Part shown: in pieces, positions 7,079-63,819 of the stretch
Layout of the letters: each line of letters opens with the position of its first letter
Numbering within the stretch: position 1 is the stretch's first letter
Notes under the pieces: model-generated
Told to the model about the DNA's origin: nothing
The model's input: only the letters and a program-made list of their open reading frames with translations
Database searches by the model: none
Program-made: the position numbers and the translations under genes
Virus record (IMG/VR): IMGVR_UViG_3300033121_000971
Coordinates: 95,517-159,516 of that record
Reading direction: 5' to 3' (one strand)
DNA: 64,000 bases
Source of the DNA: a virus
Taxonomy: Duplodnaviria > Caudoviricetes

Positions 7079-7522
7079 TTGATGGCAAAGAAAAAAATTA
7101 TTAGTGGTTCAGAGTATATAAAGGTTACACCTTTCCAGAGATGTAAGGAATTAAAGCCTAAGTTGTGGAAAGTGTTTTCAAAGTTTATAAGATTGCGTGA
7201 TGGCTGTAATTGCTATACTTGTTCTTCACGTAATATTCCAATGGCTAAATGCCATGCTGGACATTTTCATCCGAAGTCAACAACTGGTGTACTTTTGTAC
7301 TTTGAAGAAAAGAATGTTCATGCTCAATGTATTAGTTGCAACATGTATAAGAGTGGTAACTTAGCAATATATAGTTTAAGGCTGGAACAGGATTATGGAA
7401 TGGGAATTTTACAAGAGCTTGATGCTATAAAAAATAAAATATTTAAACCTACCCCAGACTGGTATGAAGAGAAGATTGCTTACTATGAAGAGAAAGTAAA
7501 AGAACTAGAAAGTAGAAAATGA
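7079..7522 (+). CDS. ninG: NinG/Rap-like recombination endonuclease
   Basis: FSKFIRLRD..CYTC...HAGHF...NVHAQCISCN pattern. Confidence 0.85.
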   Translation: MMAKKKIISGSEYIKVTPFQRCKELKPKLWKVFSKFIRLRDGCNCYTCSSRNIPMAKCHAGHFHPKSTTGVLLYFEEKNVHAQCISCNMYKSGNLAIYSLRLEQDYGMGILQELDAIKNKIFKPTPDWYEEKIAYYEEKVKELESRK

Positions 7523-7805
7523 TTATATCAGATGAAGTTGGTGATGCAATACTCAATAAGTATTTTATGTCAAATGCTAGTCATGACACTTTTAAATTAA
7601 AACTTACAAAGCAGGAACATGATGCTATTGTACCTGAAAATCCTTTTCCACATACAGGCACTTATAGGTACATTTGTTTAGAGCATTCAGATATACCTAC
7701 TGGTCTGCCTATGTGTATTGTAGGCTATGATTCTAATTCTATGGAGGTAGCCTTATACCCGTTTACGTTTATTTGGTTTAAGAGTGATGGTAAATATAAT
7801 TTTAT

Positions 7806-8447
7806 TTGGTAATGTCAAAAAGTACTCAAGGTCAAAAAATACATAAGCACGAAAGAATTAGGAATAATGTCTTCAAGTGGATAATTGAGGAACCTTCTAT
7901 TACTGATTATAGTATCTCCATGAAGCTAAAGGATGAGTTTAATTTTAAAGCATCCCAACCTTCAGTAGCGAGCTGGAGAGCTAACTATTTTCCACAAATG
8001 TTAGCAGACCATGAAAAGTCTGTACAGGAACTATCAAAGCCTGTAGCAGAGAAAATAGATTTAAAGCTTATGAGTATTGTTACTCTTAATAAATATATTG
8101 AAGACTTTAGTAAAAGACTAGAGATGCTTGCAATGATTCTTCCAGACTATCATGTAGACCCTAACAGCCAGACTACTGGAGTTAGGTACGTGTCTGGTAA
8201 TGAGGTGGAGCTGGAGGAGAGATATCAGACTAATGCAAAGTTTGTTGTAGATTTGATAAAGGAGAGAGATAAACTTGTTGGCGGTTGGACTCCTTACGAT
8301 GTGGCACTGGATACTGCACAGAAAATAACTGAGATGGTGGCTTTGTATTTAAAAGTTGATGCACAGTCGGAAGAGTATAAAGCATTTAAAGAGGCATTAC
8401 TCCAATTAGATTCTTCTTTAAAGGAGAGGTACAATGTTAAGAAATAA
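7806..8447 (+). CDS. Hypothetical protein with N-terminal HTH-like segment
   Basis: ISMKLKDEFNFKASQPSVASW resembles an HTH. Confidence 0.45.
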   Translation: MVMSKSTQGQKIHKHERIRNNVFKWIIEEPSITDYSISMKLKDEFNFKASQPSVASWRANYFPQMLADHEKSVQELSKPVAEKIDLKLMSIVTLNKYIEDFSKRLEMLAMILPDYHVDPNSQTTGVRYVSGNEVELEERYQTNAKFVVDLIKERDKLVGGWTPYDVALDTAQKITEMVALYLKVDAQSEEYKAFKEALLQLDSSLKERYNVKK

Positions 8448-57213: not shown

Positions 57214-57245
57214 CTTGACTTTACGAAAATTTTTTATTATTATTG
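57214..57245 (+). promoter_or_regulatory. Promoter class A variant driving the TerD-domain gene
   Basis: CTTG-ACTTTACGAAAATTTTTTAT-TATTATTG. Confidence 0.65.
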
Positions 57246-57269
57246 TATATAAGGGAAAAGGAAAATAAA

Positions 57270-59537
57270 ATGGAAACAGGAAATTCAATATATCTAAGAA
57301 GAAAGAACAAAGTAGTAGTAGCTGATGAAAGCAAATTTCATTCCAGTGATAACTTCTATATGATTCTTACAATCCTTCATAATGTGGGAACACTGGGCTA
57401 TACTTTCTCAGAGTCTTTACTTAACAGGTTATCTGAATTGGACTGTGACCAGCTTGCAGATTTTTATAATGACCTCATCCCAGACTTGAAAAAGATGGTC
57501 GGGGCACACAGAGAGTTTGTTCCTATGTATCCTAACTTTCCTAAGCAGGTTATGCAGGCTTCAGATGCGGAGCTGTATGTGAATGCAATGATGCACTATC
57601 TGGGAGACTGGGTAGGATTAAGAATCATGCCAGCTTATGTTAAGAAGGAAAGGAAACCTTTAAAAGGAGATGTAACTTATAAAGTTATTGACCTTGGTTC
57701 AGTTGAAGATTTTGAATCTATTTTTACAAACCTTGTTTCTTCTAATACATCTATATCACAGACTGATAAAGATGACATAGAATGGTTCGTAAAAGTAATG
57801 GGCAATCTGGTACAGGACTTAATTCCAGCATCACTGCCTAACAAGGAAACCATGTCATTTCTATCAGCAAGGCTCCTAGAGCACGTTGATGAGGATTTAG
57901 CTACCATCTTAGTTAGGTCATACGTAAAGACAGCTACAGACGTGCTTAGAATAGCAGTAGGGCTATCTGGAGGAGATGTTTCACTGGCTCAGCCATGTAA
58001 ATTCAGGAATTTTAAGAAGAGAGAGCGTAGATTTATATTAAGCCTTCTGGATGGGCTAGCTACAATAAGTTCAGCTACCGTTAATGAAGATATGCAGAGA
58101 TGGACTGAAAGGTGGAAAAGACTGGTTCAGAAGTTACATGCTGTAGATTTTACAGACAAGTACAAGAGTGCAAATGTTTCTATAAACTTTATATGCAATG
58201 ATATAAAAGTTAAGACCTTCAATTCCAGACTGGAAGAGGCTTATGAACTTAATGACCATGTGAAAGTAGTAAAAATACTTTCTGAAAGAGCTGGAGAGTT
58301 CGCAAGAAATCTGGATAGGTTGTTAAGAAGTGTATTATATTTCAATTCAAAAGCTAATAGAATAGAAGCTTTTGATGTAGTAGGTGAGTTTAGAAAAGTT
58401 GCAGGTTTTGTATCAACACCTGTTCTGTTACAAGTAATTGCTCACTTTAAAAATAAATTAGAAACTGGTAGCAGTAGAGACTTAAGGGTATTTTTACCTA
58501 AAGGTAATATAGCAAAAGTGTGGGGTATGGAGAATAACATATCTGTTAAAATTCCTGCACTTGTTATAGGTTCTGTAATTACCGCTTGTGAAGGAGCATT
58601 AAGAGAGAGATTTTCAAAGCTTCCTTCACTAGGAAATGTTTATCTGGATGAGAGATTAAAAGGTTATGTTGTACCTTTCTCCCAGAGGTCAGCATCTAAA
58701 GCATTGAAGACTGTAAGCCGTGGCTCCAGAATAAAACTGGAAGATGGGAAGAACACAGTAAGATTTTTCATCTGGTGGAAGAATATGGATGGTAGTGTTG
58801 CAAGAAGGTACTCCTATTCTTATGATGGCAGAGTTGACATTGACTTAAGTGCTACAGTTCTGGATGAGGGTTATAATAATCTGGGAACAGTGTCTTACTA
58901 TGCATTAAATAATGAAGTAGGTTGTCACTCTGGAGATATAACCAGTGCACCTAAAGGAGCTTGTGAGTTCATTGACGTGAATATTAAGAAGTATAAGGAA
59001 GCTTACCCTAAGAGTAGATATCTGGTGATGCATATAAATAGTTTTACTGGTCAAATGTTTTCAGACATACCAGAGCTGTTTGCTGGATTCATGATGAGAA
59101 CAAAGCCTAAGTCTGGAGAGATATTTGATGCAAGAACTGTTGAGCAGAAGTTTGATGTAACATCAGAATCAACATATACAACTCCATTGATAATTGATAT
59201 GGAGACAAGAGAAGTTATCTGGATTGATATGCAGTTGAAGGCTGGTAGAAGTTATGGATGGGGAGTTAATAACGTAGCTAATCATTTACAGCAGTCAACA
59301 TTGATGGTAAGGTCTATGGTTGAGATGGTTAAACCTAACCTCTATGACCTGTTCAGGTTGCATGCAGAAGCTAGGGGTGGTGTAGTAGATACAAATACAC
59401 CTTGTACCGTAGCCTATGGGTCAGGAGAGGCAACAGTATTTAATTCTGTTCCTGTAGCTTTTGATAATGGGAATCCAGAATTAAAATGTGTAACCCCATA
59501 TGATATGGATGTAATTATGTCGGAGTATCTGGTGTAA
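57270..59537 (+). CDS. Large helical-domain plus C-terminal TerD-domain protein (possible Ro/TROVE-like RNA-binding protein)
   Basis: TerD motifs RVDIDLSA...HSGDITSAP..ACEFIDV; long helical N-terminal region (PMYPNFP, TATDVLR, RAGEFARNLD); ATG at 57270 follows promoter and AAGGA. Confidence 0.75.
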   Translation: METGNSIYLRRKNKVVVADESKFHSSDNFYMILTILHNVGTLGYTFSESLLNRLSELDCDQLADFYNDLIPDLKKMVGAHREFVPMYPNFPKQVMQASDAELYVNAMMHYLGDWVGLRIMPAYVKKERKPLKGDVTYKVIDLGSVEDFESIFTNLVSSNTSISQTDKDDIEWFVKVMGNLVQDLIPASLPNKETMSFLSARLLEHVDEDLATILVRSYVKTATDVLRIAVGLSGGDVSLAQPCKFRNFKKRERRFILSLLDGLATISSATVNEDMQRWTERWKRLVQKLHAVDFTDKYKSANVSINFICNDIKVKTFNSRLEEAYELNDHVKVVKILSERAGEFARNLDRLLRSVLYFNSKANRIEAFDVVGEFRKVAGFVSTPVLLQVIAHFKNKLETGSSRDLRVFLPKGNIAKVWGMENNISVKIPALVIGSVITACEGALRERFSKLPSLGNVYLDERLKGYVVPFSQRSASKALKTVSRGSRIKLEDGKNTVRFFIWWKNMDGSVARRYSYSYDGRVDIDLSATVLDEGYNNLGTVSYYALNNEVGCHSGDITSAPKGACEFIDVNIKKYKEAYPKSRYLVMHINSFTGQMFSDIPELFAGFMMRTKPKSGEIFDARTVEQKFDVTSESTYTTPLIIDMETREVIWIDMQLKAGRSYGWGVNNVANHLQQSTLMVRSMVEMVKPNLYDLFRLHAEARGGVVDTNTPCTVAYGSGEATVFNSVPVAFDNGNPELKCVTPYDMDVIMSEYLV

Positions 59538-59897
59538 TGGCTAATAGTATAAATGAATGGAAACCAGACCAGAAGAAGCTGGAGAAGGTATGTGAGATAT
59601 TAAATGATTTAGATGTATATGTTAATGTAAGTGAGTTTGCACAAGATAAAGTAAATGAAGCAAAGAGATTAATAAAAGAAGTAATATTTGGTATATGACA
59701 ATTAAAAGAAGTAGCTGGCATTATAAGTTTAGAAAATATGTATACAGTCTTAATGGTTGGAGTAGGATAGTAGATGACATTAGATTCTGGGGGTATTGGG
59801 TTGAGGTGTTCTTTTTTTTACCAATACTTTTACTGTTTCATATGTTATATCGTTTAATAGATGTAATTAAAATAGAAATTAAAGATTAAAAAGTATT

Positions 59898-59963
59898 GAG
59901 GGCTATTTTACAACTTCCTTCTAAAAATTCAGGTGAGAAAAAATAGTTGTAGAGCTTTCCCTC
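59898..59963 (+). ncRNA. Structured RNA motif copy 1
   Basis: GAGGG-CTAT-TTTACAACT-TCCTTCTAAAAA...T-AGTTGTAGA-GCTTT-CCCTC. Confidence 0.8.
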
Positions 59964-59967
59964 TTTT

Positions 59968-60261
59968 GATTATCGGAGTCGAGCAGAGTAGCCTCTGTTC
60001 ATAAATGAAGCGTAGCAATCTTCCTCCCAAGCAGTTTACTTTGTGGCGTGGTAGCCTGTAACACAAGATATTTATATATGTTGAAAACAGCATTAGGAAG
60101 TATCCAGAAGCGAAAAGTTGTATTACGTAATGCCAGTTACCAAAGTAATTAAACATCCGTAATCTTGTTCGTAAGCCAGTTGGCAGGACTGGTTCATTGA
60201 AATAAATCAGTAGTCAAGTTAATAATTTTGTCGGGAGCTGAATAACTAAATGAAGCAAGAT
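59968..60261 (+). ncRNA. Putative structured RNA (~200-300 nt)
   Basis: ORF-free on + strand; closing helix 59968-77/60156-64; several hairpins. Confidence 0.5.
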
Positions 60262-60293
60262 AAACTTTAAATAAAAAGAAATGAAAGGAAAAA

Positions 60294-60452
60294 ATGACAC
60301 ATCAATCAGTAAGTTATATGAAGAGTGGTATTCGTATAGGGGCAGTAATTATAGCAGTAATACTACAGAACTGGCAGTTAGGATTCATAATGCTAGCTGT
60401 AGCAGAGTTTCTGGGTATTCTGGAAGAAGTTGTGGATAAAAGAAAGGAATGA
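60294..60452 (+). CDS. Small membrane protein (not in ORF track)
   Basis: MTHQSVSYMKSGIRI...AEFLGILEEVV; SD AAGGA. Confidence 0.6.
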   Translation: MTHQSVSYMKSGIRIGAVIIAVILQNWQLGFIMLAVAEFLGILEEVVDKRKE

Positions 60453-60729
60453 TATGAAATTTGAAGATATTGTTTTTAGGTTAAACAGTAGTGGGGTCTA
60501 CACTGATAGAGTTTTTACAGAAATAAAACGTGATAAAGATGGTGATGAGTATGACAAAGATGAGGTTGAAGTGGTTGTAGATAAAATAGCATACCAAGTG
60601 TGTTATGATACTGATAGAAAAGATATATATGCAAGTAAAAAGATTACTGTCAATAGGTTAGCAGGTCAGACTCTTATTGAGGCAGTAGAGGAGCAGTTAA
60701 AAGTTATAATTGATTAAATAGAGAGTATA

Positions 60730-60803
60730 TAGGGCTATTGAGTAGCTTCCTTCTAAAAAAATTGACTTGAAATCAAACCAAATTAGTTACTCAGCTTTCC
60801 CTA
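60730..60803 (+). ncRNA. Structured RNA motif copy 2
   Basis: TAGGG-CTAT-TGAGTAGCT-TCCTTCTAAAAA...T-AGTTACTCA-GCTTT-CCCTA. Confidence 0.82.
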
Positions 60804-60810
60804 AGATTAT

Positions 60811-60886
60811 AAAAAGGCTATTGGATAGCTTCCTTCTAAAAATTGGACTGAAAATCAAATGACTTAGTTATCCAGCTTTCCTTTTT
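60811..60886 (+). ncRNA. Structured RNA motif copy 3
   Basis: AAAAAGG-CTAT-TGGATAGCT-TCCTTCTAAAAA...T-AGTTATCCA-GCTTT-CCTTTTT. Confidence 0.82.
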
Positions 60887-60897
60887 CACTATCTAAT

Positions 60898-61306
60898 CCA
60901 GATGAAATCTGGGGAGATTCTGAGAACGCTAACAGACGCAAGTTATACGTACTCTGGAGAGAGCAAGGGCTCCTGATAGTTGAGTTTTAAAGAACTTCTG
61001 CTTAGGTAAATTTCGGCAGTGGGGTACCCAGAATAGTGGCTGGGTCTAGATAAACAGTTCCACTATTGTTTATCAAGTTCTTTATTTAATTTTCCTGATT
61101 GCAACAGGAAAACCTCCCAGACTGGTGCGACTGGGTTCAAAAGGGAGTCACCTGAAAGTATGTAGAAAACGTTATGAACAAGGGTTCTACAGAGACTAAA
61201 GGGGCAAGCACTAATAATTTTTAGAGTACCATAAGAGCGTGGTATTCCGTATACCAGAGGATAGCGACTACAGAACTTAGATGGGGTAAGAGTCCCAACT
61301 GTCTAT
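60898..61306 (+). ncRNA. Putative large structured RNA (~410 nt) with kissing-loop pseudoknot
   Basis: ORF-free, GC-richer, many nested helices; complementary hairpin loops ATAGTGG/CCACTAT. Confidence 0.65.
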
Positions 61307-61322
61307 AAAATTTTTAGATTAT

Positions 61323-61397
61323 ACAGGGCTATTCAATTGCTTCCTTCTAAAAATAATCACTTCCAAATGAAAAACTTAGTGATTGAGCTTTCCCTGT
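61323..61397 (+). ncRNA. Structured RNA motif copy 4
   Basis: ACAGGG-CTAT-TCAATTGCT-TCCTTCTAAAAA...T-AGTGATTGA-GCTTT-CCCTGT. Confidence 0.82.
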
Positions 61398-61501
61398 GGA
61401 ACGCTAGCCATCTTAACAATGGTGGAGTCAGAAAATAAACAACCCAGAGCTGTCTTGATTGGCAGAATCGGCTGGGGTGATAAATAGACCTTGAGCGTTC
61501 C
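61398..61501 (+). ncRNA. Putative 104-nt structured RNA
   Basis: Closing stem GGAACGCT/AGCGTTCC with internal hairpins. Confidence 0.55.
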
Positions 61502-61509
61502 GTAATTTT

Positions 61510-61539
61510 AGGCTACTTTAATTAGTAGCCTTTTTCTTT
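61510..61539 (+). terminator. Rho-independent terminator closing the ncRNA cluster
   Basis: AGGCTACT-TTAATT-AGTAGCCT followed by TTTTCTTT. Confidence 0.8.
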
Positions 61540-61556
61540 GGGGGCAAATTTTTGCA

Positions 61557-61587
61557 TTGTTTTTCAAAATAATTTCCCCTATACTTG
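61557..61587 (+). promoter_or_regulatory. Promoter class B variant
   Basis: TTG-N20-TATACTTG followed by AAGGAG SD. Confidence 0.65.
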
Positions 61588-61615
61588 TATATAAATAATT
61601 AAGGAGATAACTGAA

Positions 61616-63819
61616 ATGATAGAACTACAAGGCTTCCCAAAAAAGAAAGTGTTAAAGTTCAGAAGCTTTTTAATCAAAGGTTATGCTGATGTTATGCACT
61701 GGGGTGGTGGAAGAGGGTTAGTTCCAATGAACTCTTTTCGGATGACTGATGGTACAGACTTTAATGAAGTGCTGGAGAAAAGTTTAAATGATGGTGGCTT
61801 TGGTGTACAATCTATCAATGGGGCTATTGTGGAAATCTACTGTGACTACAGTGGGTATCAGGAGTTGCTCCAGACTGGTACAGTTAACGATGTTCTCCCA
61901 GAGTTCTGGGAGAGATACACAGAAGGAGAGTTTGACTAATGGCATACAGTGACACATACTTCGATAGCTTCTCAGGTGCAGTACAGCATGCCAGAATGAA
62001 TGTTGAAGCTGAAGGTTATGTTATAAATGAAGATGACTGGTTCAGAGAAGTGACTGTAGGAAATGGTGCTCCCAATGCTGGAGTTACTACCAGAGCTACA
62101 GTAGGTCTATCTAAGGATGGAAAGGAAGTTAAGAAGGCATTGCACTTGACAGTTTATAATCTGGGAGTAGAATCTGGAAGACCTTTCGAATTAAATTATT
62201 ATGTAAGCTGATGATAAAAATAGAAAAACATGATGCTAACGGGCTTAAGAATGATAACATTCAAATAGAAACAGATAGCTTGGAAACTTACTGGGATGCA
62301 AAAGCTTTATTTTTTGATTTGAAAGTTAACTTTCCAGAACTAGGGTTTTTCATGCAAGGTGATTCTTGTTTTGTCGGGAAGTACTGGTTGATGTTTGAAA
62401 GCTGGTCTGACAATCATGAAATGTTCGAAAGAGCATTTGAGTTTGCAAAAGAAAGACTTAAGGAGATAGTATGAGCAAATCAAAAAAAGAAGTAATAGTA
62501 GCCTTAATCCCAATACTACTTGTAATAGCAGTAGTAATAACTTTCAAATATGACTTAATCAAGATGAGCGGTCTTCCATATAAAGTCTGTAATTTGGACA
62601 ATGGTGGAACATTACAGCAGACATATCATGTAAGAGACCATTTTGAAAGAGTTGACATAGAAACAAAAGTTATGGTAGAGAAATGTCACAGCACTTCTGG
62701 GAATCTAGGTGATACATATTGTAATGATGTAGCAGTAGATGAGATAGTCTACAAGCTTGTATCAAAGGACAGTGTTGAGTTCTATAAAGAAAAAGCTATC
62801 AACGAATTGAAGTTTAAATATAACAAGCATATATTCCCAGAGGAGAATTAGATAAAATGATAGAATTATTAAAACAAATAGGTTGGACAGAGTTGTATCC
62901 TCAGACACTTGAGAGGCTACAATGGTTCCGAAACAGATTAAGAGATTACTACTCAGAGGAAGAAGTGCCAGAAGAGGAACTGGTAATTGCTGTAGTATAT
63001 GGTTTTGGTAAGTATGGGCAGAGCATGGTGTTTAATATTTACAGAATGACTAGGATGTGTTGTAACGGAAGTGACTTCTTAACAACTTTTGAACGGTTTA
63101 CAGAAGCATTTAAGGAGACAGTACCAGACACATATGCTAAAATGAAGCCATCGCTTTTCATTGATTTATTTATTGAGTATATGTATAGCAGAGTTATAAA
63201 GGGAGAATATCCAGAATAGGAGTTAAATTATGGAAGACCAAAAACAAAAAGAATATAAAAGTCTTGAGGATGACATTACTAACATTTTAGTATTTGCCCA
63301 GAACTCTAATACATCTATTAGTAAAAGACTGGATGAGTTTGAAGGCAGAACTGAAACTAAATTTGTATTGTCAGATGGGGACAAACTAGTAGAACTTATT
63401 GTAAAAGAAGCCAAGTGAAGAGAAAGATAAAATATTTCAGATTGGAGCAGAGGTATGGTGACGACTGGGTTGGGATATTTAAGTCTACTGCCTGTTCACA
63501 AAATAAGTTAATGGATTTGACTACAGGTTTAAGACAGTCTCACAATCATCCAGACAGTGACAGTAAAAACCTTTATGATGAAAGCTGGAAGTGCGGTCTA
63601 TTTTATTTTACTACTGACTTTATAGTAGACTACTTTGTATTTATGGAATTGAGACAGCTCATCCAGCACGATGCAGTTCGTGTATTACTTGTATTTGAAG
63701 ACTCAAAAGATTATACTGTGTACTGGGAGGGGAGGTCTGGGTTGCAGGTGACACTTGAGAATCTGGAGGAGCAGGATTATGAATTTAATAAGAGTTTTAT
63801 TTTAAATAGACAGCTTTAA
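61616..63819 (+). other. Block of short hypothetical ORFs
   Basis: Seven coupled + strand ORFs with no recognised function. Confidence 0.6.

What the first reader, a model, noticed from the sequence alone, without database searches (positions are those of the whole stretch)
60898..61306. ~410-nt ORF-free structured RNA with a kissing-loop inside a multibranch junction
Seen: long-range closure TTCTG..CGCTA (60918-31) with TAGCG..CAGAA (61262-75). A 10-bp helix TAAAGAACTT (60988-97)/AAGTTCTTTA (61075-84) encloses hairpins ACCCAG-AATAGTGG-CTGGGT and GATAAACA-GTTCCACTAT-TGTTTATC, whose loops are complementary over 7 nt (ATAGTGG/CCACTAT). Further hairpins lie at 61090-61112, 61161-61191 and 61224-61247. 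Large ornate phage ncRNAs (GOLLD, ROOL) are known near tRNA regions; I cannot assign this one to them or to tmRNA, RNase P or a group I intron.
Basis: partly seen in the sequence, partly recalled or inferred. Interest (0 to 1): 0.72.

Follow-up and report, generated by a model that had tools for sequence, protein, structure and literature searches.

The report
Orphan non-coding stretch in Ro-like operon

Summary
The stretch is ORF-free under four genetic codes. Its natural limits are 60887-61322: the whole gap between two copies (R2, R3) of a ~70-nt covarying RNA motif.

That motif, with the upstream 764-aa protein (Ro60-like helical part plus TerD domain), forms a gene pair that recurs beside homologues in about 240 phage, metagenome and bacterial loci. 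This scan has already reported the pair on other DNA (at least 28 genomes). One promoter-like site (57215) and one terminator (61510) bracket the unit, so the stretch is probably transcribed with the array.

The stretch itself is an orphan:
- no Rfam family, even at E<=10;
- no nhmmer or covariance-model hit in 2.4 Mb of related loci;
- no decayed-gene signal;
- no close relative of the phage in the collections.

Its folding z-score (-2.2 to -2.6) is beaten by 4 of 44 random windows of the same genome. Expression could not be tested.

Verdict: probably a lineage-specific RNA segment of the Ro-like operon. A specific ornate structure or function is not shown. Interest is moderate to low.

The parts
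57215..57243 (+). Best sigma-70-like promoter match of the unit (TTGACT-17-TATTAT)
   Evidence: 10 of 12 matches. The only other + strand site with 10 of 12 between here and 61.5 kb is at 60197. This is a consensus match only.
57243..59537 (+). 764-aa protein gene: Ro60-like helical N-terminal part plus C-terminal TerD-fold domain (phrog_33734, no Pfam family)
   Evidence: families; structure. TerD chains score Z 11-15. Thermus phage phiLo Ro60 (9l5y) scores Z 10.0 over 334 residues. Xenopus Ro60 scores Z 5.8-5.9 over 323-350 residues.
59898..59963 (+). Motif copy R4 (Y-RNA-like 'handle' RNA)
   Evidence: Covariance model R1: 66.4 bits, E 8e-16.
59964..60280 (+). X1: first non-motif, ORF-poor stretch, directly after R4
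   Evidence: z -1.6, not significant. No homologue.
60730..60803 (+). Motif copy R1
   Evidence: R1 model: 59.9 bits.
60811..60886 (+). Motif copy R2; its 3' end abuts the finding
   Evidence: R1 model: 66.4 bits.
60887..61322 (+). X2: the finding, a 436-nt ORF-free stretch filling the whole gap between R2 and R3
60988..61084 (+). Junction domain of X2: a 10-bp helix enclosing three hairpins. Loops at 61033-39 and 61060-66 are complementary over 7 nt.
   Evidence: A single-sequence model (R2) finds only itself.
61090..61112 (+). 8-bp hairpin of X2 with the 7-nt loop AUUGCAA
61323..61397 (+). Motif copy R3; its 5' end abuts the finding
   Evidence: R1 model: 63.8 bits.
61398..61505 (+). X3: 108-nt folded segment closed by GGAACGCU/AGCGUUCC
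   Evidence: z -3.3, measured with the terminator included. No homologue.
61510..61531 (+). Intrinsic terminator: the first on the + strand after the protein gene (a second, overlapping match at 61528-45)

Best explanation
X2 (60887-61322) is a lineage-specific non-coding segment of a polycistronic RNA operon. The operon runs from about 57.2 to 61.5 kb. It encodes a Ro60-like/TerD protein and four Y-RNA-like 'handle' RNAs.

Inferred steps: X2 is transcribed with the array. It is set free when the flanking handle RNAs R2 and R3 are cut out. It then folds into a closed multi-branch RNA whose two ends pair (60891-96 with 61314-19). I think it most likely persists as an accessory RNA of the same pathway, for instance as an RNA bound or handled by the Ro-like particle. 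It is not a member of any catalogued RNA family.

Shown: the stretch is ORF-free, it has the sequence features described, it lies between two verified RNA genes on the transcribed strand, and it has no relative in the data searched. Inferred only: transcription, processing, stability and any function.
For: 1. No ORF under four codes. The stretch 60715-61594 is the fourth longest in the 159.5-kb genome without an open frame of 100 codons. A comparable gap at 54.7-56.1 kb turns out to be packed with small + strand ORFs; X2 is not.
2. X2 is flanked base-to-base by R2 and R3. Both are members of an RNA family with 13 of 16 pairs showing compensatory changes.
3. The family and the 764-aa gene co-occur on the same strand. 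All 9 contigs found by the DNA motif alone carry the gene. nhmmer finds 313 copies in 141 of 161 sources (160 viral and metagenome loci plus the window itself), all on the gene's strand. In bacterial genomes 71 of 80 loci carry it, with 115 of 117 hits on the gene's strand.
4. One promoter-like site lies at 57215 and the first + strand terminator at 61510.
5. X2 has a perfect 10-bp helix closing three hairpins, a 7-nt loop-loop match (P about 5e-4 per pair) and paired termini.
6. There is no residual similarity to 71 ORFs that interrupt arrays elsewhere.
Against: No homologue turned up. The searches were: the phage collection; 160 viral and metagenome loci; 80 bacterial loci; a structure model of the junction domain; an exact pattern scan; and 5 whole phage records. 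So there is no covariation at all.

The folding z-score is ordinary for this genome and similar on the other strand.

In most related loci the handle RNAs are 10-20 nt apart. The minimal system in bacteria is the protein plus 1-2 handle RNAs. X2 is therefore not a core part. Expression is untested.
Confidence: 0.45

Rival explanations
1. X2 is functionless spacer: the remnant of an insertion into the handle-RNA array, such as a decayed mobile element or gene. Its hairpins are incidental. It is transcribed and discarded during processing.
For: Arrays elsewhere are interrupted by insertions. These include a GIY-YIG/NUMOD3 homing endonuclease and SHMT, FolD and methyltransferase genes. X2 is unique to this phage in every search. 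Its z-score lies within the genome's own spread.
Against: No trace of coding similarity to any array-interrupting ORF or to the GIY-YIG gene. Several long perfect helices and a 7-nt loop-loop match would be expected to decay in junk. The two ends pair.
Confidence: 0.35
2. X2 is a self-assembling or catalytic ornate RNA in the manner of ROOL/GOLLD, or a ribozyme. The complementary loops would make inter- or intramolecular kissing contacts.
For: Size, multi-branch fold, the loop-loop complementarity, and a location about 6 kb from a phage tRNA cluster. From memory only: the stretch GUUCUACAGAGACUAAA resembles the R element of group I introns.
Against: No match to any Rfam 15 family at E<=10, including GOLLD, ROOL, group I and the small ribozymes. 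The library did find a group I intron (92.8 bits) and a tmRNA (111.7 bits) in related loci. Reading the sequence, I find no partner strand for a P7 helix. X2 does not interrupt a gene, because R2 and R3 are both complete. It has no conservation.
Confidence: 0.07
3. The inverted repeats act at the DNA level, as a replication origin, a packaging site or a recombination site, not as RNA.
For: The named helices are perfect Watson-Crick pairs with no G-U, and both strands fold equally well.
Against: The stretch sits inside an array of RNA genes in one transcription unit. The fold contains 12 G-U pairs overall, three of them in the 12-bp long-range helix. There are no iterons or direct repeats beyond short chance matches.
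Confidence: 0.05

Closest known systems
ROOL and GOLLD, large ncRNAs of phages and prophages (Rfam families)
   Same: Several hundred nucleotides, ORF-free, multi-branched, encoded by phages in the neighbourhood of tRNA genes, function unknown.
   Different: No covariance-model match even at E<=10. Those families are widely conserved. X2 has no relative in any collection searched.
Ro60 (Rsr) with Y RNAs YrlA/YrlB, in bacteria and phages (PMC4201824; Thermus phage phiLo Ro60, PMC12135203)
   Same: The context. A Ro60-shaped protein is encoded on the same strand as small RNAs whose 5' and 3' ends form a conserved stem. Some of these RNAs carry a tRNA-like domain with a closed acceptor stem (L005 and L089).
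   Different: X2 is not one of these RNAs. It is 436 nt against 80-130 nt and has no handle. It lacks the GNCGAAN0-1G signature that PMC4201824 reports: reading the sequence, I found no CGAA in X2. The protein carries a TerD domain where Ro60 has vWA, and it matches no TROVE profile.
Stable RNAs of unknown function co-transcribed with the tRNA cluster of phage T4 (species 1 and 2); from my own knowledge, not checked here
   Same: Non-tRNA structured RNAs made from a polycistronic stable-RNA precursor of a phage, with no assigned function.
   Different: As I recall, the T4 RNAs are much shorter and their existence as stable species is shown experimentally. For X2 nothing is shown.
Three-way junctions with loop-loop contact between two neighbouring arms (purine-riboswitch type); from my own knowledge
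   Same: A closing helix with adjacent hairpins whose loops are complementary.
   Different: Here there are 7 contiguous Watson-Crick pairs and a third hairpin in the junction. No Rfam riboswitch matches. No gene follows that it could control.

Membership tests
GOLLD / ROOL | Match to the family covariance model (sequence plus structure) | tested here: not met
   No hit at gathering score on the window, nor at E<=10 on 60600-61700.
Group I intron | Match to Rfam Intron_gpI | tested here: not met
   No hit at E<=10. The same model scored 92.8 bits on a real intron in L048.
Group I intron | Interrupts a host gene (exons on both sides) and has a P3-P7 pseudoknot | tested here: not met
   X2 is flanked by two complete handle RNAs, R2 and R3. 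By reading the sequence I found no strand complementary to AGACUA.
tmRNA | tRNA-like domain plus tag reading frame, as detected by ARAGORN or Rfam | tested here: not met
   The only 'hits' came when the ARAGORN thresholds were lowered to 70%, which I treat as noise. A phage tmRNA in L059 scored 111.7 bits.
RNase P RNA | Match to the Rfam RNase P models | tested here: not met
Y RNA (YrlA/YrlB) | 80-130 nt; terminal stem with GNCGAAN0-1G near the 5' end; Rfam model | tested here: not met
   X2 is 436 nt. Reading the sequence, I found no CGAA in it. No Rfam hit. The signature is taken from PMC4201824.
   With filters off, the four flanking copies score 60-66 bits. The best hit inside X2 scores 8.4 bits, E 0.33.
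Protein-coding gene or pseudogene | An open frame, or residual similarity to proteins found at this position in relatives | tested here: not met
   Longest ORF is 25 aa. No spanning frame under table 4, TAG=Q or TAA=Q. tblastn with 71 ORFs from other arrays found nothing in X2 below E 0.2.

The most novel reading that the evidence does not exclude
X2 is a dedicated large RNA partner of the Ro-like/TerD particle in this phage lineage. It could be a scaffold or a client RNA whose single-stranded A/U-rich 3' tail and helices are held by the protein while the handle RNAs regulate access. It could also be a kissing-loop RNA that self-associates. Either way it would be the first non-Y RNA component tied to a Ro-type system in a phage.
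Probability: 0.12. Interest if true: 0.7.

Novelty: new variant of a known kind. Interest (0 to 1): 0.33.

Why it matters
If X2 is a stable RNA, this phage has added a large structured RNA to a Ro60/Y-RNA-like operon. That would give a handle on what the still-uncharacterised Ro-like/TerD particle acts on. If it is only spacer, the useful result is the map: the exact limits of the four handle RNAs, and the fact that the 'ornate RNA' is simply the gap between two of them. The surrounding protein-RNA pair is the more important object, and this scan has already reported it on other DNA.

Tried and rejected
- Rfam at gathering score and at E<=10: only chance hits.
- blastn against 50,697 phage records: nothing.
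- Close relatives through the flanking 107-aa and 764-aa proteins in IMG/VR: none.
- Profile search found 104 viral, 214 metagenomic and 106 genomic relatives of the protein. All are at most 45% identical.
- nhmmer of X1, X2 and X3 against 240 of those loci (2.4 Mb): no hit at E<=10.
- Single-sequence covariance model of the kissing-loop domain: only itself; other hits score 13.7-15 bits at E above 3.
- Exact pattern for the two kissing hairpins in IMG/VR: 0 matches.
- Five phage records sharing a 42-55% identical Nampt-like gene: they hold neither X2 nor the Ro-like gene.
- X1, X2 and X3 are not paralogues of one another.
- A tblastn hint that X3 resembles a gap in L064 did not hold up on alignment.
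- Decayed homing endonuclease or other gene: rejected.
- Recoded gene: rejected.
- Hidden fifth handle copy inside X2: rejected.
- Group I intron, on a remembered likeness to the R element: rejected.
- ARAGORN at lowered thresholds: noise.
- Relatives of a virus record cannot be drawn by the genome search.

Full report
**The object.** The window is the last 64 kb of a 159.5-kb IMG/VR phage contig.
- the two-part closure at 60918-31 with 61262-75;
- the perfect 10-bp helix 60988-97 with 61075-84;
- hairpins at 61026-45 and 61049-74, whose loops share seven complementary bases;
- further hairpins at 61090-112, 61161-91 and 61224-47.

The minimum-free-energy fold keeps most of these. It prefers a 12-bp long-range helix (60949-60 with 61218-29) to the 61224-47 hairpin. 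It also lengthens the second kissing hairpin so that part of its loop is paired. No ORF longer than 25 aa exists. No frame spans the stretch when TGA, TAG or TAA is read as sense.

**The surroundings redefine the unit.** Four copies of a ~70-nt repeat are the only copies in the genome: R4 59898-59963, R1 60730-60803, R2 60811-60886 and R3 61323-61397. The finding is exactly the gap between R2 and R3, 60887-61322 (X2). Two other non-motif stretches follow R4 (X1, 59964-60280) and R3 (X3, 61398-61505).

A DNA pattern taken from the repeat found nine other viral contigs. Every one encodes, next to the repeats, a homologue of the 764-aa ORF at 57243-59537. A profile of that protein then found 104 viral, 214 metagenomic and 106 bacterial-genome relatives. 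The repeat lies beside the gene, on the gene's strand:
- 477 copies by my pattern-plus-pairing scan of 160 loci;
- 313 nhmmer hits in 141 of 161 sources (the 160 loci plus the window), all on the gene's strand;
- 71 of 80 bacterial loci, with 115 of 117 hits on the gene's strand.

In an alignment of 39 copies, 13 of 16 predicted pairs show compensatory changes. In some loci the variable tip of the motif is replaced by a tRNA-like domain written as a circularly permuted tRNA (L005 and L089).

**The protein.** It has no Pfam family. Its AlphaFold model (pLDDT 72) has a C-terminal TerD fold (Z 11-15). The best specific match of its helical N-terminal part is Ro60: Thermus phage phiLo Ro60 at Z 10.0 over 334 residues, and Xenopus Ro60 at Z 5.8-5.9 over 323-350 residues.

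This is the plan of Ro60 with Y RNAs. However, the motif lacks the GNCGAAN0-1G signature of known Y RNAs (PMC4201824), and Rfam does not recognise it. Earlier agents of this scan reached the same reading on other genomes. My tests here agree with them independently.

**Transcription.** The best promoter-like site in the unit is at 57215. The first + strand terminator is at 61510-31. X2 therefore most probably lies inside one precursor with the protein mRNA and the four handle RNAs. This is inference from consensus scans.

**Is X2 itself a family?** I found no evidence that it is.
- Rfam 15 gives nothing at gathering score and only chance hits at E<=10. The same library detected a phage tmRNA (111.7 bits) and a group I intron (92.8 bits) in related loci.
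- nhmmer with X1, X2 and X3 found nothing in 240 related loci, 2.4 Mb in all.
- A covariance model of the junction domain (60986-61086) found only itself.
- blastn against the phage collection, an exact pattern scan and five whole phage records were all negative.
- The phage has no close relative. Its Ro-like protein is at most 45% identical to anything found, and its Nampt-like protein at most 55%.
- X2 is not a decayed gene, not a hidden fifth handle copy and not a paralogue of X1 or X3.

In most other loci the handle RNAs are 10-20 nt apart. Longer interruptions there are protein genes: a GIY-YIG endonuclease, SHMT, FolD and a methyltransferase, or a terminator-plus-promoter with another folded segment (L089). 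In bacteria the gene usually stands with one or two handle RNAs in varied neighbourhoods. X2 is thus not a core part of the system.

**Is the fold more than chance?** The 7-nt loop-loop match has P of about 5e-4 for one pair of loops, roughly 1e-2 after allowing for the number of loop pairs. The z-score of the whole stretch is -2.2 to -2.6. Random 436-nt windows of the same genome have mean z -0.39 and sd 1.39, and 4 of 44 are more extreme. The reverse strand scores -2.83. The thermodynamic evidence is therefore weak.

The stronger arguments are positional. The stretch 60715-61594 is the fourth longest in the genome without a 100-codon open frame. A comparable gap at 54.7-56.1 kb is full of small + strand ORFs, whereas X2 has none and is bounded on both sides by verified RNA genes.

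**Reading.**
- Most likely (0.45): X2 is a lineage-specific RNA segment of the Ro-like operon. It would be released when R2 and R3 are excised, fold with paired ends, and act as an accessory RNA of that pathway.
- Nearly as likely (0.35): it is a functionless insertion remnant that is transcribed and discarded.
- A ribozyme or self-assembling ornate RNA (0.07) and a DNA-level element (0.05) are not excluded, but nothing supports them.

The claim of an ornate structured RNA with a kissing loop remains a hypothesis, to be tested by RNA mapping, probing with loop swaps, and deeper searches for relatives.

Noticed in passing
window 57243-61531; loci L002-L250: The 764-aa Ro60-like/TerD protein and the ~70-nt handle RNA form a gene pair found in phages, metagenomes and many bacterial phyla (Bacillus, Paenibacillus, Brevibacillus, Planctomycetota, Acidobacteriota and others). 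Neither Rfam nor Pfam recognises the RNA or the protein. This scan has already reported the pair on at least 28 other genomes.
   Followed up: partly
L005 90-385 (same contig as L084); L089 4196-4342 and 4769-4893: Handle RNAs whose tip is a tRNA-like domain written as a circularly permuted tRNA: T arm and 3' acceptor strand (in two L005 copies ending in CCA), a short linker, then the 5' acceptor strand and D arm. ARAGORN and Rfam do not call them.
   Followed up: partly
L002 8846-9504 (also L004/L018, L006): A GIY-YIG/NUMOD3 homing endonuclease gene starts just after the 5' half of a handle RNA. Its reading frame runs into the conserved 5' part of the next full copy. The endonuclease may therefore home into the handle-RNA gene.
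   Followed up: partly
L049 7452-8789; L056 7596-8381; L074 7302-8057: Genes for serine hydroxymethyltransferase, FolD and a SAM methyltransferase sit between handle-RNA copies in three phage loci. This is a possible link to one-carbon or methylation chemistry.
   Followed up: no
L063, L065, L068, L087 (around 7260-8010): A second flavour of the handle (GGCUAA/GGCUGA ... CAUCCUUCU) forms the downstream arrays. The upstream copies keep GGCUAU ... CUUCCUUCU.
   Followed up: no
L089 4500-4690: A strongly folded ORF-free segment lies between a terminator-like hairpin and a TTGACA/TATATT promoter-like site within the array. The enclosing 419 nt have z -5.9. It is not similar to X2.
   Followed up: partly
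window 61398-61505 and 59964-60280: X3 folds well (8-bp closing stem; z -3.3 with the terminator included). X1 does not (z -1.6). Both are orphans like X2.
   Followed up: partly
window 61090-61112: An 8-bp hairpin has the 7-nt loop AUUGCAA: U at the second position and A at the sixth, as in an anticodon loop reading UGC.
   Followed up: no
L059 3876-4189; L048 11658-11956: A phage-encoded tmRNA (111.7 bits) and a group I intron (92.8 bits) lie near the Ro-like gene in two related loci. The Ro-like loci generally sit inside phage tRNA clusters.
   Followed up: no
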